DNA from: Enterobacteria phage KhF1
Sequence record: KT184313.1
Length of the DNA stretch: 64,000 bases
Strand: one strand, 5' to 3'
Shown here: in pieces, positions 43,527-63,750 of the stretch
How the letters are laid out: each line of letters opens with the position of its first letter
Numbering within the stretch: the first letter of the stretch is position 1
The notes under the pieces: generated by a model
Told to the model about the DNA's origin: nothing
Seen by the model: only the letters and a program-made list of their open reading frames with translations
Databases searched by the model: none
Program-made: the position numbers and the translations under genes

Positions 43527-43539
43527 CCCTAATAAGACT

Positions 43540-44164: not shown

Positions 44165-44165
44165 C

Positions 44166-44243: not shown

Positions 44244-44246
44244 ATT

Positions 44247-44322
44247 TTGGTAGAAGTGGAGGGATTCGAACCCATCGCCTGTCAGATTAAAAGTCTGCCG
44301 CATCACCATTCTGCTACACTTC
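44247..44322 (-). tRNA. tRNA-Lys (anticodon TTT)
   Basis: Acceptor GGAAGTG/CACTTCT, T-loop TTCGAAT, anticodon loop CTTTTAA. Confidence 0.6.
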
Positions 44323-44325
44323 CAT

Positions 44326-44469
44326 TAAATTATCTTTGTAGATAAGCTACCCAGACTTGCTTAAGGTCTGTAGCGATGTGCCTTGTTGGGTTTAAATCTA
44401 GAATTTACCCTTTCACCCTTTGTGGTCGCATACTCACAGGTAAGCTTAATAACTTATCTACAAAGATAA
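44326..44469. repeat. 19-bp perfect inverted repeat pair (AATTATCTTTGTAGATAAG) enclosing about 106 nt
   Basis: Arms at about 44326-44344 and 44451-44469 are exact reverse complements. Confidence 0.6.
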
Positions 44470-44470
44470 T

Positions 44471-44602
44471 TACCAGACCGTTGTTTATCATCTTAAGTGC
44501 TACCATTACACCAACTCGACATCTGCCGAGTGAAGGAATCGAACCTTCGCCTTTTCTTTACCGAGAAATAGATTGTTTAAGTTTTGCTGTAAACGGTCTT
44601 CT
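44471..44602 (-). ncRNA. tRNA-like domain in permuted (Y RNA-like / YrlA-like) arrangement inside a long closing stem
   Basis: On minus strand: T-arm GAAGG-TTCGATT-CCTTC, acceptor-like 7-bp helix ACTCGGC/GTCGAGT capped by a 4-nt loop, D-arm GTGT-AATGGTA-GCAC, CTTAA/TTAAG helix, outer stem AGACCGTT/AACGGTCT. Confidence 0.45.
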
Positions 44603-44615
44603 GTAAATTTGTTGA

Positions 44616-44691
44616 GCCAGACCAAGTTTTAAATTTTTCAAAATTAAATTGGCTTGAAATTTTCATACGTTCTTGCTGTATTTGGTCTTCT
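44616..44691 (-). repeat. spacer hairpin element, family member 2 (CCAGACCAA ... TTGGTCTTCTG)
   Basis: Same conserved arms and TTGCTGTA block as 44471..44602 but AT-rich interior. Confidence 0.5.
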
Positions 44692-44752
44692 GCTCCTTTA
44701 AAGGATACTCGTAAGAACCCTTTAAGGGAGGGGCTAAATAGCCCTCTCAAAA

Positions 44753-44829
44753 TTGGCGGCTACGATGAGACTTGAACTCACATCATCTCCCGTGACAGGG
44801 GAGTATTTTCTCCAGTTAAACTACATAGC
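44753..44829 (-). tRNA. tRNA-Asp (anticodon GTC)
   Basis: Acceptor GGCTATG/CGTAGCC, T-loop TTCAAGT, anticodon stem CTCCC/GGGAG, loop CTGTCAC. Confidence 0.7.
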
Positions 44830-44834
44830 CTTTA

Positions 44835-44922
44835 TTGGTGTGCCGTGTAGGAGTCGAACCTACCGAGTCTCAATGACAAGGGATTTACAGTCCCCACCGC
44901 TACCATCTACGGGATAACGACA
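44835..44922 (-). tRNA. tRNA-Tyr (anticodon GTA), long variable arm
   Basis: Acceptor GTGTCGT/ACGGCAC, T-arm GTAGG-TTCGACT-CCTAC, anticodon loop CTGTAAA. Confidence 0.65.
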
Positions 44923-44930
44923 CATTTAAT

Positions 44931-45007
44931 TTGGCGGTTAGTCAGGGATTCGAACCCTGTGCCATTCGCTTAACAGGCGACCGCACATACCTTATGTGCT
45001 TCCTAAC
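44931..45007 (-). tRNA. tRNA-Asn (anticodon GTT)
   Basis: T-arm CAGGG-TTCGAAT-CCCTG, anticodon loop CTGTTAA. Confidence 0.65.
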
Positions 45008-45020
45008 CATGTTTAGTATT

Positions 45021-45085
45021 ACCAGACCGTATATTTCAATTTTTTCCGCTAAAAATTTAATAAATATTGCTGTAAACGGTCTTCT
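45021..45085 (-). repeat. spacer hairpin element, family member 3 (CCAGACCGT ... AACGGTCTTCTG)
   Basis: Conserved arms and TTGCTGTAAACGGTCTTCTGTAAA block. Confidence 0.5.
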
Positions 45086-45091
45086 GTAAAT

Positions 45092-45167
45092 TTGGAGGCG
45101 GGTGCAGGAGTCGAACCTGCCGATACCATGCTAATGAGACATGTGAGACGCCCTTTCTCTATACCCG
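45092..45167 (-). tRNA. tRNA with anticodon CAT, copy 2 (initiator, elongator Met or Ile2 undetermined)
   Basis: T-arm GCAGG-TTCGACT-CCTGC, anticodon stem CATGT/GCATG, loop CTCATTA. Confidence 0.6.
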
Positions 45168-45179
45168 CAATTCTTAATG

Positions 45180-45251
45180 ACCAGACCAAATATCTTCTTT
45201 GTCCGATTAACTTTCAGATGAGTAGATTAAGTTTGCTGTAATTGGTCTTCT
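45180..45251 (-). repeat. spacer hairpin element, family member 4 (CCAGACCAA ... TTGGTCTTCTG)
   Basis: Conserved arms and TTGCTGTAATTGGTCTTCTG block. Confidence 0.5.
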
Positions 45252-45258
45252 GTCAAAA

Positions 45259-45336
45259 CTGGCGTTCCAGAAGGGATTTGAACCCTCAAATATCCACTTT
45301 GAAAGAGTGGTGACTTTACCATTTTGTCTACTGGAA
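45259..45336 (-). tRNA. tRNA-Glu (anticodon TTC)
   Basis: Acceptor GTTCCAG/CTGGAAC, anticodon stem CCACT/AGTGG, loop CTTTCAA. Confidence 0.7.
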
Positions 45337-45343
45337 CATTAAT

Positions 45344-45423
45344 TTGGTCTCCGTTGAAGGATTTGAACCCTCGACCCCTTGCTCCCAAAGCAAGTGCTGC
45401 TAAACCAAACTGAGCTAAACGGA
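45344..45423 (-). tRNA. tRNA-Pro (anticodon TGG)
   Basis: Acceptor CTCCGTT/AACGGAG, anticodon stem CTTGC/GCAAG, loop TTTGGGA. Confidence 0.7.
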
Positions 45424-45542
45424 GATAAACTTTTCAAACTCTATGTAACCACTTTAACATTATTTTTTAGTGATTGTCAAGAACTTTTTTAAAATATTTT
45501 TCAGTATCTTAGAAAAGCTCTCATTTCGTTTCTATGTAGAAC

Positions 45543-45589: not shown

Positions 45590-47005
45590 TTACCAGATAT
45601 AACGGTCAATCATTACTGCTTTGAGCATTACACTGATTGGGTCAAACTTCTCACCACCAAGCAGAGCTTTTAAAGTGGCTGGAGAGAACCCTGATACCAT
45701 TGCTACACCGTTATCCTTAACAGATACTTCGCAAGTACCATTACGGTTTGCTAAGTACCAGAATACCAGTTGTGGCATCTCATATCCAGCTTTTTTGTAC
45801 TTACTCTGAATTGCTTCAAAGTTTGTACGTCCGTTAGCTCCATCAACCTGATTGAACTCCATATCGGAGAAGATGATAAGCTTACTTGGCATATCTTTCT
45901 GAGTCAAGTTGTTTCTTTTACCTGTTTCAAGAATGCGGTCAAAAGCTGCTTGTAAGTTAGTTGAGCCATATTCAACGTGTCGCATCACCTGACGATGACG
46001 GTTTCGTAAATCACCACTCAATTCGATGAAATGAGGGTTTGTTGAATAAACCATTAACTCGTTCTTAAAGCAACCTGTATTGCGTTCTGCTACATACAAG
46101 GCAAGGGATACACCAATATCAAGGGCAGTGATTGAACCAAGATTCACCCAAGACATTGAGCTTGAAACATCAGTCATACACAGGATGTTTTCACCTTCTG
46201 CCATCCAGTTTGGTAGTGCTTTCCACTGCTCATTAGCAACATCTGCATTACCATACTTGATAGATTTAATCACATCGTATGGATAAACAGCACCAGCATT
46301 AATCTTAGTCTCGCCCTTTGATAAGGACTCAATGTAAGATTTGTAGCGTTCTCCATCTTTACGGTTAAAGAGTTTTTGGTAACGTGCAGCAGCAAGTGAA
46401 GGAATCTTACTGTAGTCGATATTACCAAACTCATTAGCAGAGATTTTTTGTTCAACTGTATCAGATAGTGCAGACAGCAGTGTGCGGTACTCTTTCTCAC
46501 TCAAGTTTGCAAACTTGCAGAAACGTTTTACAAACTGTTTGTGACGTGGTTTTACTCGTGGTAACCACTTAGCTGCTAAACCTGCTGTTGCAGGGTCTAG
46601 TAATGCTGCTTCTAAATGTTTGAAGGCATCTGTCTCGAAACGAGTACCTACAAAGATTTTGAAGTCATCAAAGCGACCAAGCTCTGCAATCTTATCCATA
46701 ATGCGAAGAACCTGCGTAGGTTCTAAAACTTTATCTTCAATCGCTTGAAGTAAAACAGTTCGGAAAGCTTTACGCTCACCCATACCTTCTCGTACATCTC
46801 GCATATGCAGTAAAATACGAACTGCAACATCAACATCCTCATGCAAAGCTTTGTATAACAAGTCTGGTAAGATTTCTACATTGCTACGGCTGGAACCAGC
46901 AGCTTTGTAAAAGTCCACAAGAGCAGACATTGATGAAGTATGGTTTACAGCACCATTTTCAGTTCGACCTGCATGAAGGTGCGCATGTTTAAATAATTCG
47001 CTCAT
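45590..47005 (-). CDS. von Willebrand factor A (MIDAS) domain protein with N-terminal helical domain
   Basis: MIDAS-like DVSSSM (DxSxS) at about residue 275 and downstream IIFSDMEF; N-terminal 270 aa unassigned. Confidence 0.65.
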   Translation of the reverse strand: MSELFKHAHLHAGRTENGAVNHTSSMSALVDFYKAAGSSRSNVEILPDLLYKALHEDVDVAVRILLHMRDVREGMGERKAFRTVLLQAIEDKVLEPTQVLRIMDKIAELGRFDDFKIFVGTRFETDAFKHLEAALLDPATAGLAAKWLPRVKPRHKQFVKRFCKFANLSEKEYRTLLSALSDTVEQKISANEFGNIDYSKIPSLAAARYQKLFNRKDGERYKSYIESLSKGETKINAGAVYPYDVIKSIKYGNADVANEQWKALPNWMAEGENILCMTDVSSSMSWVNLGSITALDIGVSLALYVAERNTGCFKNELMVYSTNPHFIELSGDLRNRHRQVMRHVEYGSTNLQAAFDRILETGKRNNLTQKDMPSKLIIFSDMEFNQVDGANGRTNFEAIQSKYKKAGYEMPQLVFWYLANRNGTCEVSVKDNGVAMVSGFSPATLKALLGGEKFDPISVMLKAVMIDRYIW

Positions 47006-54052: not shown

Positions 54053-54506
54053 AGAAGTAGTGCAAAGAGCAATGCTTGACAATTCTACTAAAGATGAGAT
54101 GTACACAGAAATTTGTGATAAGTTGAACTGCTCAAGACATGCTGCTAAGGTTCTTGTACATTGTTTTATTTGGGAATGCTCAGAAGCCTATATGAAACAC
54201 GTAGCTTTTGAGAGTTCTCATTTACTCGGTGATGCAAAAATAGGTGTAGCACTAAAAGAGCCTGAGATGAAAACAGTACCTAAAGTTGGTAATGTGTATA
54301 AACTAAAAAATTTTATTACAGGCGAGATTGTTGCAGAAGGTGAAGTGCAACAGGTTTATCATGATGGTAAATATCTGTTTAAGATATTCGAGTATGATAG
54401 TCGTTACAGACACTTATGTGGTATTACATTTTTAGTTTCAGAGGATGACCTCATCAAGAACAATAGTAATAAATTCGCAGTACCAGAATATCAAGTTTTA
54501 CGATAA
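54042..54506 (+). CDS. hypothetical protein
   Basis: ORF track. Confidence 0.45.
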   Translation: MKIKEVVQRAMLDNSTKDEMYTEICDKLNCSRHAAKVLVHCFIWECSEAYMKHVAFESSHLLGDAKIGVALKEPEMKTVPKVGNVYKLKNFITGEIVAEGEVQQVYHDGKYLFKIFEYDSRYRHLCGITFLVSEDDLIKNNSNKFAVPEYQVLR

Positions 54507-54519
54507 TGGTGTGATAGAT

Positions 54520-55068
54520 ATGGAAAAAGATAACTTAAAAGAAGTTGAAGGTAACTACTTAGTACTTGACTGGAAGGATGTTCGGGAAGCACTCTCCGAA
54601 GAAAATCTTGACTGGTTCGAACAAATTATCTTTGCAGTACGGCATAACAGAGAAGTTGAAAATGGTAAAGAGCCACTTGAAGGAATCTTTGTAGAAAGGT
54701 CTTATCCGTTCTATGAAGACACTTTGCAGAAAGTTAAGATGTACTTTAAACAGAAGAACCGTAAAGTGGTCACTATGGTATCTCTTGGTGGACAGAGTAT
54801 GTCTGTGATGGAAGATATCAACCCTAAGAGACCGAGTAAAGGTGTTTGTATAAAAATCACAGGTCATGAAGAGTACATCTCAGTGGATGATTTTAGTATG
54901 TTCTGTAATGGTTCTGCTGTCTTTAATGGGTTTCACTATGATATCCGAGTGTATCCAATCAAGGGAGATGCTGTTATGATGCAGATGTTCGATAACAATA
55001 ATGGATTTACTCATTTTTATCAGACAACCAAGTCATCATTAAAAACAGTTCTGGAAACACTGATTTAA
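54520..55068 (+). CDS. hypothetical protein
   Basis: ORF track; start moved to ATG at 54520 after upstream stop. Confidence 0.45.
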   Translation: MEKDNLKEVEGNYLVLDWKDVREALSEENLDWFEQIIFAVRHNREVENGKEPLEGIFVERSYPFYEDTLQKVKMYFKQKNRKVVTMVSLGGQSMSVMEDINPKRPSKGVCIKITGHEEYISVDDFSMFCNGSAVFNGFHYDIRVYPIKGDAVMMQMFDNNNGFTHFYQTTKSSLKTVLETLI

Positions 55069-55087
55069 AATATCTTAAGAGCCTCCT

Positions 55088-55116
55088 TAATTGGGGGCTT
55101 TTTATTGAGTAAAATT
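55088..55116 (+). terminator. rho-independent terminator closing the plus-strand operon
   Basis: GAGCCTCC...GGGGGCT hairpin followed by TTTTTATT. Confidence 0.6.
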
Positions 55117-55119
55117 TAC

Positions 55120-56600
55120 GAAATTTATATTTTTTATAAAATTTTATCGGTTGTCCCAACCCCTGGGTCACCATTATATGTGAACAAAATATCTACCCTT
55201 CTTAACAACCTTCTTAAGCTTACTCTCTATATATAGTTATATAGTACTATATAGTATCTTAGTATCTATCTAGTGGTCTTAATAGCCCTCTGTATAACCC
55301 TTCTAACTAGCCTTCTAACAAGCCTTCTTAACAACCTATACAATCACCTTAACCATCTCTCTATACGCTCTTAGAAGCCTCTATACACCTCTTAATCTCT
55401 AGGTAAGCTATGTGACTCTCTATAGGTGTTCACTAGGTATTACTAAGCCTCTATATAGACTGTTTTAACAAACTTAACAGGAATATCTTTACAGACCTTA
55501 TCTCACAAGGTCTAACACGGTACTAACAAGGTATCTTATAAGCCTGTTATTACCTGTATTTTTAAAAGGCTGTATAGGTAATTATTCAGAATCTTAAAAT
55601 TTTTATAAAATAGGACTATCAAGTCATTTTTTAGGGTCTTTGAAGGAACTGAAAAATATCTGTAGAAGATGTATATCTGCTTGGTAGCCCTTAACAACTC
55701 CCTTACAAGTACTTTGCAAAATTTTAAAATATCATTAACAATTCCTTAACAACTCTCTCAAGTTCTTAACATCTCTTCAGAGGTCTTAACAGATTCTTAA
55801 CAGAACTAACAAGGTTGTAACAAGTTCTTAACAGTTGATACATAGGCTTTACAGAATCTTAACAGATGACTAACAAGAGCTAACAAGTTAATTTTTAAGA
55901 GTTATTTTGTTAAGATAATTAACAAGTCTCTAATAAGTGTTTAATCTTTTTAACAAGCTATTAACATGGTCACTACTCTTTTCTTATCGTTCCCTTTCCT
56001 TTCTTAGTGATTCTTTAAACATACCTCTTAAAAGCTCTCTATAGCCCCTTGTAAGCTCTTTTAAGCCTCTTCCTAGTAATTACACCCCAACTGTACAGAT
56101 ACCTCTTTATAAGGCTTTACAGGGGCTTTAAAGGCTATGTCAAAGACTCTTACAAGGTTTTTACGTGGTCTTAACAGAGATTTAACAAGGGGCTAACAAG
56201 TTGCTAACAAGTGCCTTAAAAGCATAACTATGTAGGGATTGTTAAGAAATTGTTAAGAGAATGTTAAGGGGGCTAGCATTTACGTAACTTTTAAGCAACT
56301 TCAAAGTAACTTTATAGCCCCTATAACATACTTTTAAGACACTAACAAGCCCTTTTTAGATATTCACAAGAATACTAATGAGATGATAAAGCTTACACCC
56401 TTATAAGATTCTTTTAAGTCTCTGGGAAGCTTTATAAAGGGCTTTTAAGGGTGAGGTAATGCAATCCCTTAAGTTAGGTTGATAAGGCTGTTATAGAGCT
56501 TTATAGAGCGTTTAAATGGGCCATCCCCTTTCTGGGGTTATTGGCTTTTATTTAAGTTGATTTGATAAGAGGTTATAGAGTAGACTATAGAGTTATTGTT
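55120..56600. repeat. 1.5 kb non-coding tract dense in degenerate short repeats (CTTAACAA, CTAACAAG, TATAGAG and relatives)
   Basis: No ORF over 60 aa; dozens of TTAACA-containing 8-10-mers seen directly. Confidence 0.7.
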
Positions 56601-56727
56601 TTTAAGGTCTGATAAGATTCTGGAAAGGAAAGGAAAAGGATTGTATAGAGGCTATTACATAGACGTAAAAAGCCCCATTTTAAGGGGCTGTTCAGGTATC
56701 TGGGGCTATTTAGCCCCGTTGCGTCGA

Positions 56728-56976
56728 TTAGTTATAATCTTGTTTGTTGTAGTACAGGGAGACGATTTTTTCTCCCCAATAGTGATAAGTATAACCATCC
56801 TTGAGAACTTCTTGTTTTGTTTCCTCCCAGAACTCATCCGAAGGATTATAATCTTTGATGGTCTGACTGATAAGACATTTCACCATTTCAAAGGCGTTAT
56901 CAGTGCCTGCAATGTCAAATTTAACATCCAGAGAGGAAAAACCGAACTCGTTAACAGTAGCGCGGATAGTTGCCAT
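56728..56976 (-). CDS. small early-type hypothetical protein
   Basis: Preceded by conserved type A leader (hairpin + GGAG SD). Confidence 0.55.
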   Translation of the reverse strand: MATIRATVNEFGFSSLDVKFDIAGTDNAFEMVKCLISQTIKDYNPSDEFWEETKQEVLKDGYTYHYWGEKIVSLYYNKQDYN

Positions 56977-57042
56977 TTTTGAATCTCCTAGTTTAAGGGT
57001 TTTATTTAGTGGGGAGGTTATCGCCTCCCGTTGATTAGTAAT
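56977..57042 (-). promoter_or_regulatory. conserved intergenic leader, type A (GGGGAGG hairpin + SD)
   Basis: catttttgaatctcctagtttaagg...tttagtggggaggttatcgcctcccgttgat; contains stop of upstream gene. Confidence 0.6.
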
Positions 57043-57306
57043 TTACTGCATATTGGCGTATGTTGCAAGCCTTTTTTCGTTGTATTTTGTAAGAATCTCA
57101 CAAGATACAACATCATACTTTGTAACAGCGTTGCCTTTATCGAGGTCAAAAAAGCCAAACGCTTTACCATCTTTGAATCCGACAACTTCGTAAGATTCTT
57201 TGATGATTTCACCATTGAACAAATCACTTTCGATACGGTGAAATAATGCTACATCTTCTTTGTCGGTTGCAATTTGTAAAAGTGTGGTTAATTCTACGTT
57301 TTCCAT
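57043..57306 (-). CDS. small early-type hypothetical protein
   Basis: Preceded by type A leader. Confidence 0.55.
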   Translation of the reverse strand: MENVELTTLLQIATDKEDVALFHRIESDLFNGEIIKESYEVVGFKDGKAFGFFDLDKGNAVTKYDVVSCEILTKYNEKRLATYANMQ

Positions 57307-57372
57307 CTTGATAACTCCAGTTTAGGATTTTATTTAGTGGGAAAGGTCATTCCCTCCCCGTTGATTGACAAT
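57307..57372 (-). promoter_or_regulatory. conserved intergenic leader, type A
   Basis: ccagtttaggattttatttagtgggaaaggtcattccctccccgttgattgacaatttacag. Confidence 0.6.
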
Positions 57373-57903
57373 TTACAGACTTTTGATTGTCTCGTCAATA
57401 TCTTTTTCAATATCTTTTAAAGTTTTTTCTAAGTTCTTGATATTGAACGTTAAACCTTCACCAAGAGTCTTAGAGTAACCACTAGGACGTAAATTATACA
57501 GTTTAATTTCTTCCACTTTAAAGAGGCTAGCTAACTCACCGTTTACATCATAAGCCATTGAAACAGTATTTGCAGGTGCATTGTAAAACTTGTTTAGTGA
57601 CTTGATAGAACGTTCATAAGCCATTTTATAACCGTTTAAAAGGCTTTTAACGTGGTTGTGAACGTTTTTACACTCATCTAGATAAATCTCTAAGAATAAC
57701 GGTAATAATTCCGCTACAGCTTGCATAAAGTGAGAGACTACAACGGTTGAGACATTACGACGATGAACGTAATAAGCCCCGTTTTCTGATTTGGTGATTG
57801 TTGCGAAATGTACCCCATTACAACGAAATTCGTATGTATCTTTTACAGGCTTAGACATTACAGCATTTGAACGAATGAAGTTGATAGCTTGAAATTTGTT
57901 CAT
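57373..57903 (-). CDS. small early-type hypothetical protein
   Basis: Preceded by type A leader. Confidence 0.55.
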   Translation of the reverse strand: MNKFQAINFIRSNAVMSKPVKDTYEFRCNGVHFATITKSENGAYYVHRRNVSTVVVSHFMQAVAELLPLFLEIYLDECKNVHNHVKSLLNGYKMAYERSIKSLNKFYNAPANTVSMAYDVNGELASLFKVEEIKLYNLRPSGYSKTLGEGLTFNIKNLEKTLKDIEKDIDETIKSL

Positions 57904-57975
57904 TTTAGAATCTCCAGTTTAGGACTTTATTTAGTGGGGAGGTCATCCCTCCCGTTGATTAGTAATTTACTTGTT
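57904..57975 (-). promoter_or_regulatory. conserved intergenic leader, type A
   Basis: ccagtttaggactttatttagtggggaggtcatccctcccgttgattagtaatttac; tandem TTGACA -35-like boxes further upstream at about 58060-58095. Confidence 0.55.
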
Positions 57976-58121
57976 TTGATAGCTGATTGCAAGCAATTTT
58001 TTAAGCTTATCTATAAAGAATCTTTTAAGTTAATCCCTTTTAGATAAACCCCCTCGAACAAAGTTACCAATGTCAAGGGGTATTGTCAACACTTTTTTAA
58101 AAGTTTTTTGTAAGTCATTGA

Positions 58122-58463
58122 TTAACTGATGAATATTTTTTCAGGTTTTACATAGCTGATACGCTGACTTTTTAGCAGGTCATCCCAGATTAACGCGGCG
58201 ATATGGGCATAACCGGATTCACGTAAAAGCTTCATTGTTTTACTTCTCGTTTCAAAACGGCTTGCGTAGTACTCACTATTTAAAACCGTTTTATTCCCTT
58301 CGTTATCTGTATGGATGATTTGCATCACTTGAAAGGGGCTGACATCCTCGCCTTTGTTCCACTGCTCAAAGTATTTTAGGCACTGCATAGGTGACATCTT
58401 ATCACTTACTTGAGTTGACCAAGATGAATCTTCTTTATCGGTAATTACAGTTACATAAGCCAT
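58122..58463 (-). CDS. small early-type hypothetical protein
   Basis: Preceded by type A leader. Confidence 0.55.
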   Translation of the reverse strand: MAYVTVITDKEDSSWSTQVSDKMSPMQCLKYFEQWNKGEDVSPFQVMQIIHTDNEGNKTVLNSEYYASRFETRSKTMKLLRESGYAHIAALIWDDLLKSQRISYVKPEKIFIS

Positions 58464-58554
58464 TTTAGAATCTCCTAGTTTAAGGACTTTATTTAGTGGG
58501 GAAGGTCATTCCCTCCCCGTTGATTGACAATTTACAGACTTTTATCAGGCTTGT
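58464..58554 (-). promoter_or_regulatory. conserved intergenic leader, type A
   Basis: cctagtttaaggactttatttagtggggaaggtcattccctccccgttgattgacaatttacagac. Confidence 0.6.
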
Positions 58555-58788
58555 CTAGTCTTTTTCAATGATAATTTCATATTGACCATCGACACTGTCA
58601 AAATAGACGCCGTCTTCATCTTCTGTCTTAAAGTAGCATTGAATATCATCACTGGCGGGATAGTCTTGTCTTGCTATCTGGCAAACTTGAATAGCATTTT
58701 CTTTACTCCCTGTAAACTCCTCAAGCCCTTTAAAATCACATGAATGACCATTACAAATAGAAAGGATAAGATAAACGGTTGTAAGCAT
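58555..58788 (-). CDS. small protein with N-terminal signal-peptide-like segment
   Basis: MLTTVYLILSICNG hydrophobic N-terminus; preceded by variant hairpin AGCCCCT-gtga-GGGGCT. Confidence 0.5.
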   Translation of the reverse strand: MLTTVYLILSICNGHSCDFKGLEEFTGSKENAIQVCQIARQDYPASDDIQCYFKTEDEDGVYFDSVDGQYEIIIEKD

Positions 58789-58854
58789 GATTTAAGCCTC
58801 CTAAAAGCCCCTGTGAGGGGCTAATCAGTGTTTATAAGGTGATTGCATAGGTTT

Positions 58855-59397
58855 TTAGAAAAAACCCTTTAAATCCTCTTCTGCGATGTTTTCTGTCAGT
58901 GTATCCATGATGTCACAAAAAACCTGAATACTGTCCGATTGTTGAACACTTTTAGCAAGTAGTTCTAATGTCTCATCAAGATAGTTCATATTTGGGTTAT
59001 CCAGTGAAGGAAGACAAAAAGGCGAATACATAGCGTTAAACTCTGTTGTATAGACCTTTTTAATCCAATTTATATCAAAATACTCTGTAAAACTTGCTAC
59101 ACTCGACATATTATCACAAGAATAATCGTCGTTTAGTTCAGCCTCTGGAATATCAAGTTCTAGGATAACAATATTTTGTGTCTTCATCTGGAAAGCTGCG
59201 GTGATAGTGGCATTGCCTAAAGCTTGCTGGATACCTTCAGAGATTATTTCTTCCTCATCGTCGCCATAGATTTTATTTTCTGGATACACGTAAAAATTGC
59301 CGTCCATATCCGAACAATTCCATGCGCCTGATGGTTTATCACCGTTATTAATCAGGTTGAGGAAATTTTCTTGAGTAGTTCCGTGATAGCATTTCAT
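58855..59397 (-). CDS. early-type hypothetical acidic protein
   Basis: Preceded by type B leader. Confidence 0.55.
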   Translation of the reverse strand: MKCYHGTTQENFLNLINNGDKPSGAWNCSDMDGNFYVYPENKIYGDDEEEIISEGIQQALGNATITAAFQMKTQNIVILELDIPEAELNDDYSCDNMSSVASFTEYFDINWIKKVYTTEFNAMYSPFCLPSLDNPNMNYLDETLELLAKSVQQSDSIQVFCDIMDTLTENIAEEDLKGFF

Positions 59398-59484
59398 TTT
59401 TGAATCTCCTAGTTTAAGGATTTAGTGGTAAAGCTCTTTATCTGGGGCTTACTTTATCGAACTATAAGCCCCTTGTAAAGTACT
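59398..59484 (-). promoter_or_regulatory. conserved intergenic leader, type B (GGGGCTTA...TAAGCCCC hairpin, TAAAGTACTTTA palindrome, SD)
   Basis: tttagtggtaaagctctttatctggggcttactttatcgaactataagccccttgtaaagtactttattt. Confidence 0.6.
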
Positions 59485-59733
59485 TTATTTAACTTTCTTT
59501 GAGAAAATTAGTTTAACTGCAACCGTAGGAACCTCGTCAGCGATTGTAACCAGCATCACTTTTTGAGTGACCAACTTATAACCGTTCTTTGCAGCGTATG
59601 CGGTAAAACGGTTGACATTGTAACTATAAGTTTTTGGTGTGTTATCTGGCATGTGGTAAATGAAAGGTTTACCCAAATTTTCTTCTTGTGTCAATAATCT
59701 ACAGGTATCGGGAATGTTAAAGTAGTTCATCAT
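59485..59733 (-). CDS. small early-type hypothetical protein
   Basis: Preceded by type B leader. Confidence 0.55.
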   Translation of the reverse strand: MMNYFNIPDTCRLLTQEENLGKPFIYHMPDNTPKTYSYNVNRFTAYAAKNGYKLVTQKVMLVTIADEVPTVAVKLIFSKKVK

Positions 59734-59819
59734 TTTTAGAATCTCCAGTTTAGGATTTAGTGGTAAAGCTCTTTATCTGAGGCTTAAGTTATCAACTTTT
59801 AAGCCCCTTGTAAAGTACT
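59734..59819 (-). promoter_or_regulatory. conserved intergenic leader, type B
   Basis: tttaggatttagtggtaaagctctttatctgaggcttaagttatcaacttttaagccccttgtaaagtactttatttg. Confidence 0.6.
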
Positions 59820-60023
59820 TTATTTGTTATTTTTGACAACTTTTAAAACTGCAAGATAGCCTAAGCAATAAGAATCACCGAAGAGAGTCCTACCCATGAA
59901 AGAATCCTCTTTGATATCCTTTGCAGTGACAGTTTTTTCTACGCCGTGGGAAAGGACTATATCACCAACTTTGATATCTTTGATGTGTGTAGTTTCAATG
60001 GTTAAACCATTAATAATAGCCAT
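59820..60023 (-). CDS. small early-type hypothetical protein
   Basis: Preceded by type A leader. Confidence 0.5.
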   Translation of the reverse strand: MAIINGLTIETTHIKDIKVGDIVLSHGVEKTVTAKDIKEDSFMGRTLFGDSYCLGYLAVLKVVKNNK

Positions 60024-60124
60024 TTTGGAATCTCCAGTTTAGGACTTTATTTAGTGGGGAAGGTCATTCCCTCCCCGTTGATGTGTAATTTAATCTATCT
60101 AAAAACCAGTGTCAACAAAATTTT
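60024..60124 (-). promoter_or_regulatory. conserved intergenic leader, type A, with full promoter (TTGACA, 17 nt, TAAATT)
   Basis: Reverse complement reads TGTTGACA-ctggtttttagatagat-TAAATT-acacatcaacGGGGAGGGAATGACCTTCCCC...GGAGATTCCAAAATG. Confidence 0.65.
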
Positions 60125-60529
60125 TTAGAGTTCTGCATAAATTGCATCACAGATATCGCGGAAGTCATGATTAGTCAAATTACGCTGCAACCAAGTGGCG
60201 AAAAAGTCAGCGATTGCAAAGTTAGCATCATACTCGACAGATAGCCACACTTTAACAGCAAATCGGAACATTTTCAAATCTAACTCTTTATTCATTACCT
60301 TAGATTTGCCTAACATGTCGGACATTTCATATTGCGCACCGTCTAGTGTGATACCTGCTGCAACGTCAGCCAATGAATTTTTTACGTTTCCAACGTCTAA
60401 AATAACGCTTTGAATCTTTCCGATAATGTTGTGCAATGTCTCATCAGGCGCTGATGATGTCATAATGTTGATTCGATTAACGGTCAAACGTGCTTTTAAG
60501 GTTGATAATTCACGGTTATTAATAGCCAT
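60125..60529 (-). CDS. early-type hypothetical protein
   Basis: Start set to ATG at 60529 (MAINNRE...); track start is a non-ATG codon inside the leader. Confidence 0.5.
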   Translation of the reverse strand: MAINNRELSTLKARLTVNRINIMTSSAPDETLHNIIGKIQSVILDVGNVKNSLADVAAGITLDGAQYEMSDMLGKSKVMNKELDLKMFRFAVKVWLSVEYDANFAIADFFATWLQRNLTNHDFRDICDAIYAEL

Positions 60530-60615
60530 TTTTAAGTTCTCCAATTTAGGATTGAGTGGTAAAGCTCTTTATCTGGGGCTTAAGATATCAACTCCCAAGC
60601 CCCATGTAAAGTACT
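60530..60615 (-). promoter_or_regulatory. conserved intergenic leader, type B
   Basis: ttaggattgagtggtaaagctctttatctggggcttaagatatcaactcccaagccccatgtaaagtactttaca. Confidence 0.6.
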
Positions 60616-60888
60616 TTACATTAAATGCAGTTTTTTGCCTTTTACTATAATGTAACTCGATGCGCTATTGCTTTGCACATCCTGATAAATTCTGCGCAAA
60701 CGTCCTTCGTAGTGTACTTTCCAACTGGTTGGAATCTTTTTACCGTATCCCGTAGCAGTTTTTTGGAGTCCTGCTACTTGCCAATCTAAGATATGAGTTT
60801 CAGCCTGTAAATCCTCAAAGTGCATGACACCATCTACATAGTGACGTAGTGTGACATTTAAAGTACGACCGTTGTTAGTAGTATACAT
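60616..60888 (-). CDS. small early-type hypothetical protein
   Basis: Preceded by type A leader. Confidence 0.55.
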   Translation of the reverse strand: MYTTNNGRTLNVTLRHYVDGVMHFEDLQAETHILDWQVAGLQKTATGYGKKIPTSWKVHYEGRLRRIYQDVQSNSASSYIIVKGKKLHLM

Positions 60889-60977
60889 TTTGGAATCTCC
60901 AGTTTAGGACTTTATTTAGTGGGGAAGGTCATTCCCCCCCCCGTTGATGTGTAATTTAATCTATCTAAAAACCAGTG
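60889..60977 (-). promoter_or_regulatory. conserved intergenic leader, type A, with TTGACA/TAAATT promoter
   Basis: Near-identical to element at 60024..60124 (hairpin arm has an extra C run). Confidence 0.65.
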
Positions 60978-61310
60978 TCAACAGTTTTGTTTTCGTTTGC
61001 TCAATTCTTGAACAATTACAGCGTAGTAGTCTTTTAAGTCACTGACATTTAAAGCATTTATCAGAGAATTATAATCATCAACTAACTGAAAATCATCTTT
61101 GAAGATGTCACTTATCTGATAGGTTTTCGCTTTGTATCTGAAGCTCATCTCTAGCCGCTTTATTTGCTCATCACTGAGACGCCCTAGAAAGCTCTCTACA
61201 AGGTTATTGCTGACCTGCTGTGTGATTGCCTTATTTGCTAGATTATAGGCTTTATATGCCTTATATAGCGCGAAAATGGCAATGATTGCAGTGATACCAG
61301 TCATTAACAT
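60978..61310 (-). CDS. small membrane protein
   Basis: N-terminal TM helix MLMTGITAIIAIFALY. Confidence 0.5.
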   Translation of the reverse strand: MLMTGITAIIAIFALYKAYKAYNLANKAITQQVSNNLVESFLGRLSDEQIKRLEMSFRYKAKTYQISDIFKDDFQLVDDYNSLINALNVSDLKDYYAVIVQELSKRKQNC

Positions 61311-61600
61311 GGTGTTTCCTCTTTACGTGATACTTTGCCATTTACAGTTATCTCATAGGATTCTAATAAATCGCTTTTAGACTTTACAGGACTTTTAAAA
61401 GTATCATCATAAATATTAACTTGCAATACAGGTTTTTTATATTCCCTGCAACTATTCCATAAGCAAATCACTACACGACGGCCTTTTATTTTGCCGTGTA
61501 ACCATTCCATAACATCATGACTATTTCTTGATGTCTCGATAAAATCAATTTTGTTGAGTAACTTGCTTAGATTTTCACGAACTTTATTCGATAATTTCAT
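61304..61600 (-). CDS. small early-type hypothetical protein
   Basis: Preceded by type B leader; overlaps downstream gene start. Confidence 0.5.
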   Translation of the reverse strand: MKLSNKVRENLSKLLNKIDFIETSRNSHDVMEWLHGKIKGRRVVICLWNSCREYKKPVLQVNIYDDTFKSPVKSKSDLLESYEITVNGKVSRKEETPC

Positions 61601-61690
61601 TTTAGAATCTCCAGTTTAGGGGTTAATTTGATAAAGCTCTTTATCTGGGGCTATCATATCAGCTTGTTAGCCCCGTGTAAAGAGGTCTAT
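61601..61690 (-). promoter_or_regulatory. conserved intergenic leader, type B variant
   Basis: tttaggggttaatttgataaagctctttatctggggctatcatatcagcttgttagccccgtgtaaag. Confidence 0.55.
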
Positions 61691-62203
61691 TTAGTTCTTA
61701 AAGATATTCATCACTGAGTCTTTTAATGATTCCAAACGTTCTAATACTTCAGATTCTGCGTCTGAGTTGTTCACTTCTTCTTTCAGTCTGTCATCTAAAT
61801 CATCGCCGTCACTATAGCACCAATCGAAAGCGTAACCAATATAAAAACTGTCTAAAATTGTTTGACCATTTGCATCGACAACTTTCGCGGCAAGGTTGTA
61901 TTCTGAAGCCTCTAAATCTCTTTCTAATTCTTTCTGTAAGCTTGTGTAAGCCTCTTTTGATGGATTTTCCCGGCCTTGTTTTGCATAGTCACTTGAAAGC
62001 TGTTTAAGGCTGTAATGTAAAGGGATTGCATATTTAAATTCATTACGCTGACAGTTAGGATTTTTAACAGTCACGCCGCCTTGATGGTCATCTGTAAACT
62101 TCCAATTATCAAGATTATGGCTTGCTTCGTAGCAATTAACAGCTTCGTAAATGATGGAAAATTTTTCTTTTACAACTTCAAAGGTAGCGTCTACAGTTTT
62201 CAT
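61691..62203 (-). CDS. early-type hypothetical acidic protein
   Basis: Preceded by type B leader. Confidence 0.55.
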   Translation of the reverse strand: MKTVDATFEVVKEKFSIIYEAVNCYEASHNLDNWKFTDDHQGGVTVKNPNCQRNEFKYAIPLHYSLKQLSSDYAKQGRENPSKEAYTSLQKELERDLEASEYNLAAKVVDANGQTILDSFYIGYAFDWCYSDGDDLDDRLKEEVNNSDAESEVLERLESLKDSVMNIFKN

Positions 62204-62290
62204 TTTTGAATCTCCTAGTTTAAGGATTTAGTGGTAAAGCTCTTTATCTGGGGCTTACTTTATCGAACTATAAGCCCCTTGTAAAGTACT
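62204..62290 (-). promoter_or_regulatory. conserved intergenic leader, type B
   Basis: Same sequence family as 59398..59484. Confidence 0.6.
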
Positions 62291-62584
62291 TTATTTGTTA
62301 ATTTTCAGCTTTGCATAACTTCTCATTGTACGAATGGGGGATGTTAATGCTACGCGTCTAATGTATGCCTTTTTCGTGTATACAGTTGTCTTCCCGATAG
62401 TGTTTACACATGTAAAAAGGTTTATCGGTGAATTTTTTAACTTCAACTGTTTATCAACCTTCACGCCCCACCTTACAGCAGATTGTTTTCCGTTGTCAAC
62501 CACTTTCCCGCATAACTTTTTAGCCATGATACGAGCGTCATCACGAGTCTTTGCGGTAATTACAACGTTTTTGATAATAGCCAT
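62291..62584 (-). CDS. small early-type hypothetical basic protein
   Basis: Start set to ATG at 62584 (MAIIKNV...). Confidence 0.5.
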   Translation of the reverse strand: MAIIKNVVITAKTRDDARIMAKKLCGKVVDNGKQSAVRWGVKVDKQLKLKNSPINLFTCVNTIGKTTVYTKKAYIRRVALTSPIRTMRSYAKLKINK

Positions 62585-62670
62585 TTTTAAGTTCTCCAAT
62601 TTAGGATTTAGTGGTAAAGCTCTTTATCTGGGGCTTACTTTATCGAACTATAAGCCCCTTGTAAAGTACT
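62585..62670 (-). promoter_or_regulatory. conserved intergenic leader, type B
   Basis: Near-identical to 62204..62290. Confidence 0.6.
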
Positions 62671-63054
62671 TTATTTGTTAATTTTGAAGATAGTTACATA
62701 ACCATCGCTGCCGATTATTTGAGATACTCCAGCTTTTTCCACTGAATAGCCCATATTTTCAAGATGATAAACAGCATCATCATAACCATATGCGCCACCC
62801 TGATAACGTCTCTTATCGCATCTTATCAGGTTTTTACCACGTCCTGCAAGTGCATTCAGTACAGCTTTTTCACTTGATAGTGTACCATCTAACATGGTTG
62901 CCGTGTAATGGTTGATTTTATTCCCGTTAATATCATACTTAAAATTGAATGCGTGAACAACAATCAATTTGCCGTTAAATTTTTCATCAAGTGACTTCTC
63001 CAGTGCGTTGCGGAAGTTGTCTTTGTTGATGAATTTCGGTGCACGATAAGCCAT
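62671..63054 (-). CDS. early-type hypothetical protein
   Basis: Preceded by type B leader. Confidence 0.55.
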   Translation of the reverse strand: MAYRAPKFINKDNFRNALEKSLDEKFNGKLIVVHAFNFKYDINGNKINHYTATMLDGTLSSEKAVLNALAGRGKNLIRCDKRRYQGGAYGYDDAVYHLENMGYSVEKAGVSQIIGSDGYVTIFKINK

Positions 63055-63142
63055 TTTTAAATCTCCTAGTTTAAGGGTTAATTTAGTAAAGCTCTTTATC
63101 TGGGGCTTAAGATATCAGCTTTTAAGCCCCCTGTAAAGTACT
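63055..63142 (-). promoter_or_regulatory. conserved intergenic leader, type B
   Basis: tttaagggttaatttagtaaagctctttatctggggcttaagatatcagcttttaagccccctgtaaagtactttatttg. Confidence 0.6.
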
Positions 63143-63364
63143 TTATTTGTCGTAGTAGTAAATCGCTGTCTGCCTTGTAAATTTCTTAGTGTTTCTTGTA
63201 AGGTAGCAATTAGAATTAATAGCCGTTTCTACATAGTTGCAATAGTCGGCTTCTGATATTCTGGACCATACGCCACAAATTTGCATGTAAAAACGTTTTA
63301 CCTTTGTGTTAACGTTAGTTGTAACCATCAATTCACGACTGTAAAGCATTATTTCGCGCTCCAT
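63143..63364 (-). CDS. small early-type hypothetical protein
   Basis: ORF track; overlaps upstream gene end. Confidence 0.45.
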   Translation of the reverse strand: MEREIMLYSRELMVTTNVNTKVKRFYMQICGVWSRISEADYCNYVETAINSNCYLTRNTKKFTRQTAIYYYDK

Positions 63365-63537
63365 TTCTCAAAGAGTTCAGCAGGGAAACGTTCGCTATAC
63401 CCTTTTAAGGAAAAAGTATTATCTTTGTGGATAGCTTCCACCTGATAAACCTTATAAGAGCGTATAGTTAGCATTTTGTAAGAGTATTCGTGCTTAATGT
63501 TAACCTCATCGCCAACTTTAATTTTTCTTGATGCCAT
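63349..63537 (-). CDS. small early-type hypothetical protein
   Basis: Preceded by type A leader. Confidence 0.5.
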   Translation of the reverse strand: MASRKIKVGDEVNIKHEYSYKMLTIRSYKVYQVEAIHKDNTFSLKGYSERFPAELFEKWSAK

Positions 63538-63605
63538 TTTTGAATCTCCAGTTTAGGATTTTATTTAGTGGGGAAGGTCATTCCCTCCCCGTTGATGTAA
63601 ATATT
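63538..63605 (-). promoter_or_regulatory. conserved intergenic leader, type A (first of the array)
   Basis: ccagtttaggattttatttagtggggaaggtcattccctccccgttgatgtaaatattag. Confidence 0.6.
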
Positions 63606-63750
63606 AGATAACCACGTTCAAAGAGTCAATAAAAATTTTAAAAATATTTTTGGCAAAACTGTAATGAAACGGATGCGCACGACTACCACAAAACAGAACG
63701 CAAATCAAGAATTATTTTTCAATCCGCTACAAATTTTTCTATTGACTTTT

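What the first reader, a model, noticed from the sequence alone, without database searches (positions are those of the whole stretch)
55120..56600. 1.5 kb gene-free tract packed with short degenerate repeats
About 1.5 kb has no credible ORF and is dominated by recurring motifs (CTTAACAA, CTAACAAG, TTAACAG, TATAGAG, CTCTATA), dozens of copies in both orientations. It lies where the plus-strand operon (ending 55068) and the minus-strand small-gene array (ending about 56728) converge. Iteron density like this suggests a replication origin, a packaging or terminal region, or a binding array for a DNA-binding protein.
Basis: seen in the sequence. Interest (0 to 1): 0.65.

Follow-up and report, generated by a model that had tools for sequence, protein, structure and literature searches.

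The report
Terminal-repeat region of Felix O1-like phage
This 1.6-kb gene-free stretch is where the linear chromosome of a Felix O1-type phage starts and ends (a roughly 590-bp direct terminal repeat), and it is filled with about 60 copies of a short TTAACA-type motif spaced one DNA turn apart that most likely guide the cutting and packaging of the DNA; the ends are already known for relatives, the motif arrays have not been studied.

Summary
Window 55105-56700 has no credible ORF and is packed with a degenerate 8-9-bp motif (CTTAACAAG / CTAACAAG / CTTAAAAG, plus CTCTATA), far above dinucleotide-shuffle expectation and with a strong 11-bp period.

The window comes from a Felixounavirus (Felix O1-like myophage), and the tract is conserved in about 255 phage records of three genera.

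Its core, 55683-56273, aligns base for base with the direct terminal repeats at both ends of related GenBank records (581 and 651 nt). Published read-based (PhageTerm) analyses of Felix O1-like phages report T7-like short repeats of 581-613 bp.

So the tract is the concatemer junction: one terminal repeat, two flanking motif arrays and two convergent terminators. Both repeat boundaries are invariant in 15 aligned genomes and form an inverted repeat, TAGCCC(CC)TTAACA. Motif cores are better conserved than spacers, and indels come in multiples of 11 bp.

T7's junction, checked directly, has the same layout. The most likely function, which is inferred, is a helically phased protein-binding platform for generating termini and starting packaging.

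A replication origin is not excluded, but there are no DnaA or IHF sites and no initiator was recognised. No small terminase subunit was identifiable.

Novelty: new member of a known kind. Interest is moderate.

The parts
54445..55068 (+). Last gene of the + strand operon (207 aa, unknown function)
   Evidence: ORF list. Matches PHROG phrog_4330, unknown function. No Pfam hit.
55083..55107 (+). Intrinsic terminator closing the + operon
   Evidence: Terminator scan. Annotated as a rho-independent terminator at the homologous place in AYO145A and Moogle.
55105..55189 (.). AT-rich (28% GC) block predicted to be curved, ending in the conserved block CCCCTGGGTCACCATTATATG
   Evidence: Composition. 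Predicted curvature is 36 degrees per 31 bp against a window mean of 18.6. Conservation profile.
55190..55550 (+). Left-flank repeat array, outside the terminal repeat. CTTCTTAACAA / CTAACAAG and CTCTATA motifs are almost all on the + strand, and the + strand is C-rich (GC skew -0.38).
   Evidence: Loose motif +8/-1 and CTCTATA +5/-0. 12-nt and 11-nt tandem arrays. 95% identity to nine Felixounavirus genomes and 76% to five Mooglevirus/Suspvirus genomes.
55551..55682 (.). Conserved AT-rich (27% GC) block just outside the left repeat boundary, ending in the invariant GATGTATATCTGCTT
   Evidence: Predicted curvature 26 degrees per 31 bp.
55683..56273 (.). Predicted direct terminal repeat (DTR, 591 bp), present once in this assembly and at both ends of virion DNA
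   Evidence: The first and last 581 nt of PP886228 (phage D4) and the first and last 651 nt of MN994499 (NBEco005) are 100% identical, and their limits align to window 55683 and 56273. Position 613 of MH571750 (Ro111lw), whose published DTR is 613 bp, also maps to 55683. At least 12 further records start or end at or within about 15 nt of these two points.
55683..55696 (+). Left boundary element GGTAGCCCTTAACA, predicted to be the 5' end of the + strand of mature DNA
   Evidence: Nearly invariant: identical in 13 of 15 aligned genomes from three genera, with one substitution each in Andreotti and SUSP1. Forms an inverted repeat with the right boundary.
55712..55755 (.). Most deeply conserved block, TTTGCAAAATTTTAAAATATC...TTAACAA, 30-70 nt inside the left boundary
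   Evidence: It is the only stretch still detected by blastn in Pectobacterium phage Arno18, a distant member of the Ounavirinae.
55688..55960 (+). Array B inside the DTR: TTAACA-type motifs on the + strand, many at 11-nt spacing
   Evidence: Over the whole DTR body (55683-56222), TTAACA counts are +13/-1.
55961..56024 (+). Pyrimidine-rich spacer inside the DTR without motif copies
   Evidence: Sequence and motif map.
56025..56222 (+). Array C inside the DTR: CTTAAAAG / CTTACAAG / CTAACAAG motifs, mostly on the + strand
56223..56273 (-). Right tip of the DTR. It consists of the conserved unique block GCATAACTATGTAGGG, then three motif copies on the - strand at 11-nt spacing (ATTGTTAAG AAATTGTTAAG AGAATGTTAAG), then GGGGGC. 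The motif orientation flips here.
   Evidence: Best conserved sub-region: 0.89 identity to the far genera and 0.97 to the near ones. The last 14 nt, AATGTTAAGGGGGC, are identical in 12 of 15 genomes; Sf17, SUSP1 and Sf13 have one substitution. The 11-nt array is shown.
56274..56660 (-). Right-flank repeat array, outside the terminal repeat. Motifs are on the - strand, read on + as CTTTTAAG, TTATAGAG, CTATAGAG and GATAAG. This is the most variable part and carries the large indels.
   Evidence: Loose motif +3/-11 and CTCTATA 0/-5. Indels of 11, 23, 132, 143 and 154 nt.
56661..56689 (-). Intrinsic terminator closing the - strand small-gene array
   Evidence: Terminator scan. Annotated as a terminator in AYO145A and Moogle.
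56728..56976 (-). Last gene of the - strand small-gene array (82 aa, unknown function)
   Evidence: ORF list. Matches phrog_4559, unknown function. No Pfam hit.

Best explanation
The tract is the concatemer junction, that is, the joined chromosome ends, of a Felix O1-like phage that packages DNA with short, exact, non-permuted direct terminal repeats, as T7 does.

Layout. In replicating concatemers one copy of the roughly 591-bp repeat (55683-56273) sits between two convergent, terminated transcription units. In the virion it is present at both ends.

Proposed role of the motifs (inferred). The roughly 60 copies of the TTAACA-type motif lie about 11 bp apart, one helical turn, inside the repeat and in the 500-bp left and 400-bp right flanks. 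They are proposed to be a cis-acting, helically phased binding platform for the packaging machinery: terminase or a still unidentified small subunit or accessory protein. That platform would position the enzyme at the two invariant boundary elements.

Proposed cutting mechanism (inferred). The boundaries form an inverted repeat, 5'-GGTAGCCCTTAACA on the + strand and 5'-GCCCCCTTAACA on the - strand. One sequence-specific nickase could therefore cut the + strand at the left boundary and the - strand at the right boundary. This would leave 5' overhangs of the repeat that a polymerase fills in, duplicating the repeat so that both daughter chromosomes get a copy. This is the classical staggered-nick model for T7-type ends.

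Shown versus inferred. Shown: the repeats, their phasing, their conservation, and the mapping of relatives' chromosome ends. Inferred: protein binding, nicking at the inverted boundary elements, and the role in packaging.
For: 1. Identity. The tract is 97.5% identical to phage KhF2 and is present in about 255 Felixounavirus, Mooglevirus and Suspvirus records.

2. Physical ends. D4 and NBEco005 carry identical 581-nt and 651-nt sequences at both record ends, and these align exactly to 55683 and 56273. Ro111lw's 613-bp DTR ends at the same left point. Many independent records open at these points, and 25-37 of about 255 records carry the segment twice.

3. Read-based literature. PhageTerm gives T7-like short DTRs of 613 bp (PMC6454146) and 581 bp (PMC8303462), and DTR with linear genomes for D4, E9 and H12 (PMC11737134). 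Whichard et al. inferred short terminal repeats for Felix O1.

4. Constraint.
- The tract keeps its 1.6-1.8 kb length, low GC, motif counts and lag-11 signal in 15 genomes of three genera.
- Its identity to the far genera is about 77%, equal to or above the flanking genes at 70-81%.
- Motif cores are more conserved than spacers: 0.816 vs 0.712, circular-shift p about 0.0015.
- Both boundaries are nearly invariant: the left 14-nt element is identical in 13 of 15 genomes and the last 14 nt at the right in 12 of 15, each exception being a single substitution.
- Indels cluster at 11, 22-24, 132, 143 and 154 nt, so helical phase is preserved.

5. Specificity. CTCTATA/TATAGAG and CTAACAAG are almost absent from the other 62 kb.

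6. Precedent checked directly. The T7 junction has 21 CCTAAAG-type repeats on one strand at 12-14-bp spacing across the right flank, the 160-bp repeat and the left flank.

7. A large terminase subunit is encoded at 38222-39838(-).
Against: - No sequencing reads or virion DNA of this particular phage were available, so its ends are assigned by homology.
- No protein that binds the motif is known. No small terminase subunit is recognisable in the window or annotated in about 255 related records. The 66-aa ORF upstream of terL is only a helical hairpin with no fold match.
- The cut positions relative to the shared TAGCCC..TTAACA element differ by 4 nt between the two boundaries, so the 'same nickase' idea is not exact, and PhageTerm ends can be off by a few bases.
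- A few records open elsewhere in the tract, for example at about 56058.
- The arrays extend much further (1.6 kb) than any characterised terminase recognition site.
- The function of the analogous T7 repeats is, to my knowledge, itself not established.
- Other functions, such as an origin or transcriptional insulation, could share the tract.
Confidence: 0.6

Rival explanations
1. The tract is an iteron-type replication origin. The phased direct repeats would bind a phage or host initiator, and one of the adjacent AT-rich blocks would melt. This could coexist with the terminal repeat, as T7's secondary origins lie near its ends.
For: Many helically phased direct repeats. Two conserved AT-rich blocks of 27-28% GC, one of which is predicted to be curved. 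T7's terminal regions carry the phiOL and phiOR promoters, which from my own knowledge act as secondary origins.
Against: No DnaA-box or IHF consensus site in the tract. No initiator, helicase loader or any annotated function in the flanking ORFs. The units have an 8-9-bp core rather than the 17-22 bp typical of iterons. There are about 60 copies over 1.6 kb in two opposed blocks. GC skew in the window follows gene orientation and shows no separate origin signal.
Confidence: 0.15
2. The arrays act after DNA entry or exit rather than in packaging. They might bind a protein that protects or tethers the chromosome ends, for example against RecBCD, or that controls stepwise DNA injection, like the non-coding repeat-rich zone in the T5 terminal repeat.
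For: In both unique flanks the motif reads 5' to 3' toward the nearest chromosome end. That polarity would matter to an enzyme entering from an end. The arrays lie within 1 kb of both ends.
Against: No Chi-like sequence is present. No evidence for two-step injection in Felix O1-like phages was found in the papers searched. No binding protein is known.
Confidence: 0.1
3. The tract is a transcriptional buffer between the two convergent units. C-rich, G-poor read-through RNA with repeated YC-containing units would load Rho, or the many -35-like TTAACA hexamers would act as RNA polymerase decoys, preventing collisions and antisense RNA.
For: Downstream of each terminator the sense strand is C-rich: skew -0.38 in the left flank, -0.20 in the DTR body and +0.20 on the + strand in the right flank. 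TTAACA differs from the -35 consensus TTGACA by one base.
Against: Both units already end in good intrinsic terminators. Full promoter-like sites are not enriched: 10 vs 6.5 +/- 2.7. Exact motif conservation, 11-bp DNA phasing, phase-preserving indels and the mapping of DNA ends are not explained by this model.
Confidence: 0.07
4. The tract is functionless repeat DNA produced by replication slippage in a gene-free gap, or it encodes a structured non-coding RNA.
For: Unit-wise indels show that slippage does occur. The RNA fold z-score is about -2.
Against: Conservation across three genera equals or exceeds that of the flanking genes, and the boundaries are nearly invariant. There is no Rfam match. 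The fold signal is equal on both strands and comes from the inverted repeat at the two repeat ends, which points to a DNA-level symmetry.
Confidence: 0.05

Closest known systems
Concatemer junction of phage T7 and T3: a 160-bp terminal repeat flanked by arrays of short repeats (called SRL and SRR by Dunn and Studier 1983; those names are from my own knowledge)
   Same: Exact, non-permuted short direct terminal repeat inside a non-coding junction. A 7-9-bp motif with a similar flavour (T7 CCTAAAG; here CTTAAAAG / CTAACAAG) is repeated about 20-60 times at roughly one-turn spacing, in both flanks and inside the repeat, with a strong strand bias. Verified on the T7 sequence. PhageTerm classes Felix O1-like phages with T7.
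   Different: The repeat is 591 bp rather than 160 bp, and the junction 1.6 kb rather than about 0.65 kb. The period is 11 rather than 12-14 bp. Motif orientation flips near the right boundary, whereas T7's is unidirectional. The boundaries form an inverted repeat, which T7's do not. The host is a myovirus with no phage RNA polymerase promoters, and the junction lies between convergent rather than co-directional genes. The small terminase subunit is unidentified.
Terminase recognition sites made of repeated elements: lambda cosB (R sites plus an IHF site) and SPP1 pacL/pacR
   Same: Repeated short binding elements flank the cleavage site and are thought to wrap around an oligomeric small terminase subunit.
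   Different: Those systems give cohesive ends or headful, permuted ends, not duplicated exact repeats. They use a handful of sites over 100-300 bp. No IHF site is present here. This comparison rests on my own knowledge and was not tested here.
Iteron-type origins (lambda ori, P1 oriR, plasmid oriV)
   Same: Helically phased direct repeats next to AT-rich DNA.
   Different: No adjacent initiator was recognised and there are no DnaA boxes. The core is much shorter and there are far more copies. Chromosome ends map here.
Non-coding, repeat-rich zones in long terminal repeats of T5-like phages, and the short inverted 'bracket' sequences reported at the limits of the long terminal repeats of Twort-like staphylococcal phages
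   Same: Repeat-rich non-coding DNA associated with terminal repeats. Inverted elements mark the two repeat limits.
   Different: Those repeats are 8-10 kb and contain genes. Both points are recalled from memory, and my literature search did not retrieve the sources, so they are leads only.

Membership tests
Short direct terminal repeat (T7-type) chromosome ends | The same sequence is present at both ends of the linear virion DNA | tested here: met
   Shown for close relatives and assigned to this phage by homology. D4 has 581 nt and NBEco005 651 nt that are 100% identical at both record ends, aligning to window 55683-56273. Between 25 and 37 of about 255 records carry the segment twice.
Short direct terminal repeat (T7-type) chromosome ends | Fixed, non-permuted termini seen in sequencing reads or restriction mapping of virion DNA | not testable with these tools
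   No reads are available for this phage. Published PhageTerm results exist for the relatives Ro111lw (613 bp), Pr103Blw (581 bp) and D4/E9/H12.
Short direct terminal repeat (T7-type) chromosome ends | Conserved sequence at the cleavage points | tested here: met
   Both boundaries are nearly invariant across three genera. The left 14-nt element is identical in 13 of 15 genomes and the last 14 nt at the right in 12 of 15; each exception is a single substitution.
T7-like junction architecture | A non-coding junction with arrays of a short motif in both flanks of the repeat | tested here: met
   Here. T7 itself.
Terminase-dependent packaging signal | Large and small terminase subunits are encoded, and the small subunit binds the repeats | tested here: inconclusive
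   TerL was found (phrog_979, E = 1e-233). No TerS was found by PHROGs or Pfam, in the annotation of about 255 records, or by fold search of the 66-aa upstream ORF. Binding cannot be tested here.
Iteron-type replication origin | DnaA boxes and/or IHF sites | tested here: not met
   TTWTNCACA and WATCAANNNNTTR have no match between 55105 and 56700, and their numbers across the window are at chance level.
Iteron-type replication origin | An initiator gene next to the repeats | tested here: inconclusive
   All flanking ORFs fall in PHROG families of unknown function and have no Pfam domain.
Iteron-type replication origin | An AT-rich unwinding element beside the direct repeats | tested here: met
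   Blocks 55105-55189 (28% GC) and 55551-55682 (27% GC). This is necessary but not specific.
Headful (pac) packaging site | One fixed initiation cut with variable, permuted downstream ends | tested here: not met
   Both limits of the repeat are fixed to the base in independent records.
cos site | Short single-stranded cohesive ends with no duplicated duplex segment | tested here: not met
   Relatives carry 581-651-bp duplex repeats at both ends.
Known non-coding RNA families (Rfam 15) | A match to a covariance model | tested here: not met
   The only hit is a sub-threshold chance match over the 55083 terminator: Phe_leader, 24 bits against a gathering score of 55.

The most novel reading that the evidence does not exclude
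The TTAACA arrays and the invariant inverted boundary elements GCCC(CC)TTAACA may form a complete, symmetric cis-acting system. An unidentified Ounavirinae factor would use it to make staggered, strand-specific nicks 591 bp apart and so duplicate the terminal repeat; no recognisable small terminase subunit exists in the group. That would give a tractable model for how short terminal repeats are generated, a step still unresolved even for T7. The similar motif flavour in T7 (CCTAAAG) and here (CTTAAAAG / CTAACAAG) might point to a shared host factor or a shared DNA-structural requirement.
Probability: 0.25. Interest if true: 0.6.

Novelty: new member of a known kind. Interest (0 to 1): 0.4.

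Why it matters
Felix O1-like phages are widely used for Salmonella and E. coli typing, biocontrol and therapy, and are now being engineered (for example Bas63 knockout libraries). Most of the roughly 255 deposited genomes are opened arbitrarily, at rIIA or at assembly breaks, leave this tract unannotated, and often collapse the terminal repeat.

Knowing that 55683-56273 is the terminal repeat, and that its near-invariant boundaries can be recognised from sequence alone, has three practical uses. Genomes can be oriented correctly. Synthetic genomes can be rebooted with proper ends. Packaging signals can be designed for transducing particles.

Biologically, the tract is a second, independent and much larger example of the T7-style arrangement of a terminal repeat embedded in phased short repeats. 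It also has natural variation in 11-bp units. That could help to work out what such arrays do.

Tried and rejected
- Intrinsic DNA curvature (Bolshoy-Trifonov wedge model): the arrays are not more curved than the rest of the window (19.5 vs 18.6 degrees per 31 bp; 77 of 312 windows score higher). Only the two AT-rich blocks are curved. Static bending therefore does not explain the phasing.
- Rfam at a permissive E-value: nothing relevant.
- RNA folding of the repeat: z is about -2 on both strands, caused by pairing of the two inverted repeat tips, which points to DNA symmetry rather than an RNA.
- Sigma-70 promoter scan: 10 sites vs 6.5 +/- 2.7 expected, not enriched. CTCTATA/TATAGAG is nearly confined to the tract, so it is not a general phage promoter element.
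- DnaA and IHF consensus searches: none in the tract.
- Search for the binding protein:
  - PHROGs and Pfam on 20 ORFs around the tract and around terL gave only 'unknown function'.
  - TerL has no sequence relative in the PDB.
  - The 66-aa ORF upstream of terL folds as a helical hairpin (pLDDT 83) with no meaningful PDB match.
  - No record annotates a small terminase subunit.
- IMG/VR scan for the 14-nt left boundary: mostly chance hits in unrelated contigs, and no information on contig ends.
- Boundary-element pattern GCCCNNTTAACA elsewhere in the window: only the right boundary matches exactly; 7 hits with up to 1 mismatch vs 3.4 expected.
- Literature searches returned nothing usable for the T7 short-repeat arrays, for bracket repeats of Twort-like phages, or for Felixounavirus transcriptomes. 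The Felix O1 and wV8 genome papers do not discuss the tract.
- Small ORFs annotated inside the tract by some pipelines (UAB_Phi87, ESh22, LMP phages) are short, differ between records and are not kept by careful annotations. They were rejected as genes.
Full report
**Source and setting**

The window is from a Felix O1-like myophage (genus Felixounavirus). The tract 55100-56720 is 97.5% identical to phage KhF2 and is found in about 255 phage records from Escherichia, Salmonella, Shigella and Citrobacter hosts.

The tract lies between two convergent units. On one side is a + strand operon whose last gene ends at 55068. On the other is a - strand array of small genes whose last gene ends at 56728. 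Each unit is closed by an intrinsic terminator. In the usual Felix O1 numbering the tract sits at about 13-16 kb.

Depositors annotate it as nothing, as a few 'repeat_region' features, as terminators only, or with short pipeline ORFs that differ from record to record. The Felix O1 and wV8 genome papers do not discuss it.

Yes. They are also enriched against dinucleotide-preserving shuffles of the tract itself:

| Measure | Observed | Shuffles |
|---|---|---|
| TAACAAG copies | 12 | 0.26 +/- 0.5 |
| 8-mers present at least three times | 32 | 2.4 +/- 1.9 |
| Loose motif YTWA[ACT][AC]AR, both strands | 62 | 12.9 +/- 3.9 |

Local base composition therefore does not explain the repeats.

Two further properties emerged.

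- The repeats are periodic. Self-identity at a lag of 11 nt is 0.401 vs 0.277 +/- 0.011, with harmonics at 21-22 and 31-33 nt. Tandem Repeats Finder and the repeat finder list about ten separate 11-nt arrays.
- The two orientations are segregated. The TTAACA-type motif and CTCTATA are on the + strand in the left flank and in most of the centre. They are on the - strand from 56238 rightwards.

**What the tract is**

Several related records begin or end inside the tract, and always at the same places. I fetched both ends of two records from different laboratories.

- The first and last 581 nt of PP886228 (phage D4) are 100% identical.
- The first and last 651 nt of MN994499 (NBEco005) are 100% identical.
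- In both, the limits of the repeat align to window 55683 (GGTAGCCCTTAACA...) and 56273 (...TGTTAAGGGGGC).
- Position 613 of MH571750 (Ro111lw) also maps to 55683.

Published read-based analyses agree. PhageTerm gave a 613-bp 'T7-like short direct terminal repeat' for Ro111lw (PMC6454146). It gave two 581-bp terminal repeats for Pr103Blw (PMC8303462). It gave direct terminal repeats with linear genomes for D4, E9 and H12 (PMC11737134). Whichard et al. had already inferred short terminal repeats for Felix O1 from the gel size.

The core of the tract, 55683-56273 (591 bp), is therefore the direct terminal repeat, collapsed to one copy in this assembly. The whole gene-free tract is the junction between successive genomes in a concatemer. 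For this particular phage the assignment is by homology, since no reads were available.

**Evidence for function beyond 'the ends are here'**

I aligned the tract from 15 genomes of three genera: Felixounavirus, Mooglevirus and Suspvirus.

- All keep a tract of 1.6-1.8 kb with 34-35% GC, 40-66 motif hits and the lag-11 signal.
- Identity to the distant genera is about 77%, as high as or higher than that of the flanking genes (70-81% over the parts that align).
- Motif cores are better conserved than the spacers between them: 0.816 vs 0.712, with p about 0.0015 by circular shifts.
- The two repeat boundaries, GATGTATATCTGCTT|GGTAGCCCTTAACA and AATGTTAAGGGGGC|TAGC, are nearly invariant. The left 14-nt element is identical in 13 of 15 genomes and the last 14 nt at the right in 12 of 15, each exception being a single substitution. 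The 51-nt right tip is the best conserved sub-region.
- Indels between genomes cluster at 11, 22-24, 132, 143 and 154 nt. Whole 11-bp units are gained and lost and helical phase is kept.
- A distant Pectobacterium member of the subfamily, Arno18, has a syntenic 1.46-kb convergent gap. It carries TTAACA/TGTTAA motifs and recognisable counterparts of both boundary blocks.

**Symmetry**

The two boundaries are an inverted repeat. Read inward from each 5' end, the mature DNA would start 5'-GGTAGCCCTTAACA (+ strand, left) and 5'-GCCCCCTTAACA (- strand, right). Further motif copies follow at 11-12-nt spacing. This also explains why the single-stranded repeat is predicted to pair its two tips on either strand.

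In both unique flanks the motif reads 5' to 3' toward the repeat. The orientation switch lies at a conserved unique block at 56223-56238, about 40 nt inside the right boundary.

**Most likely mechanism (inferred)**

The arrays are probably a helically phased binding platform for the packaging machinery. The near-invariant inverted boundary elements are probably the sites of strand-specific cuts. A cut in the + strand at the left boundary and one in the - strand at the right boundary would leave 5' overhangs of the repeat. A polymerase could fill these in, giving each daughter chromosome a full repeat. This is the classical staggered-nick model for T7-type ends.

None of these steps is shown here. 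The cut positions differ by 4 nt relative to the shared element. No binding protein could be named.

- TerL is encoded at 38222-39838(-).
- No small terminase subunit is recognisable by PHROGs or Pfam or in the annotation of about 255 records.
- The 66-aa ORF upstream of terL is only a helical hairpin without a fold match.

**Comparison with the known**

The closest system is the T7 junction, which I checked on the T7 sequence itself. Its 160-bp repeat is identical at both ends. There are 21 CCTAAAG-type motifs on one strand at 12-14-nt spacing, running through the right flank, the repeat and the left flank.

The Felix O1-type junction has the same plan but differs in several ways:

- It is larger: a 591-bp repeat in a 1.6-kb tract.
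- It has an 11-nt period.
- It switches motif orientation near the right boundary.
- It has inverted boundary elements.
- It lies between convergent genes in a myovirus that has no phage RNA polymerase.

**Rivals**

- Replication origin. There are phased repeats and AT-rich blocks, but no DnaA or IHF sites, no initiator was recognised, the units are unlike iterons, and GC skew gives no independent signal. It may coexist with the terminal function and needs replication mapping.
- End protection or injection control. This fits the end-directed polarity of the flank arrays but has no other support.
- Transcriptional buffering. The sense strands are C-rich and TTAACA resembles a -35 hexamer. However, both units have good terminators, full promoters are not enriched, and this model does not explain DNA phasing or the ends.
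- Functionless slippage DNA or a non-coding RNA. This is contradicted by the conservation pattern, by the absence of an Rfam match and by the strand-symmetric fold signal.
- Static DNA curvature. It is not elevated in the arrays.

**Verdict**

The identity of the tract as the terminal-repeat region is already implicit in genome announcements for relatives. To the extent I could search, the following have not been described:

- the conserved, phased and orientation-switching motif arrays;
- their 11-bp-unit evolution;
- the near-invariant inverted boundary elements.

I rate the tract as a new member of a known kind (T7-type terminal-repeat junction with short-repeat arrays), of moderate interest.

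Noticed in passing
window 56972-63640: The - strand array of small genes carries 5-6 copies each of 44-99-nt intergenic cassettes. Each cassette has a terminator hairpin, CTTTACA-type motifs, a ribosome-binding site and a start codon. They correspond to the 57-bp and 39-bp direct repeats mentioned for Felix O1, and they share the CTTTACA/CTTAAAAG flavour of the terminal arrays.
   Followed up: partly
window 40268-45424 (- strand): A cluster of 26 tRNA genes.
   Followed up: no
window 45590-47005 (- strand): A 471-aa protein of PHROG family phrog_850 ('RNA-binding protein') lies directly upstream of the tRNA cluster. A preprint on the related phage Bas63 describes its gp130 as Ro60-like and suggests that some of the 'tRNAs' may be Y-RNA-like partners.
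   Followed up: no
L015 (phage SUSP1) 446-2139; also L019: The tract has about 35% GC in the Suspvirus SUSP1. A preprint gives 47.2% GC for the genome of another Suspvirus, mistaenkt. If SUSP1 is similar, the tract resists the compositional drift of the rest of the genome. The genome GC of SUSP1 was not checked.
   Followed up: partly
L008 (Moogle) and L011 (SP116), just left of the position homologous to window 55668: A 24-nt insertion, TTGATTCGGTAGAATCTACCTCAT, is present 15 nt outside the left repeat boundary in two genomes of different genera. It contains a GGTAG copy and a small hairpin.
   Followed up: no
window 39845-40045 (- strand): A conserved 66-aa ORF lies immediately upstream of terL, where a small terminase gene would be expected. 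It is predicted to be a two-helix hairpin (pLDDT 83) with an acidic tail, has no family or fold match, and is annotated as hypothetical in all records.
   Followed up: yes
window about 56056-56062: Two records (BPS17L1 and Z31) are opened inside the terminal repeat at this point rather than at a boundary. This is probably an assembly break, but it was not examined.
   Followed up: no
window 56305-56310 and 56619-56651: These are the two hot spots of large length variation in the right flank. Indels there measure 132-154 nt and 69-119 nt among the 15 genomes. A GGAAA x3 micro-repeat lies at 56622-56636.
   Followed up: partly
window 56596-56982 (+ strand): A 128-aa TTG-initiated ORF runs antisense over the terminator and the last - strand gene. 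It is very likely spurious.
   Followed up: no
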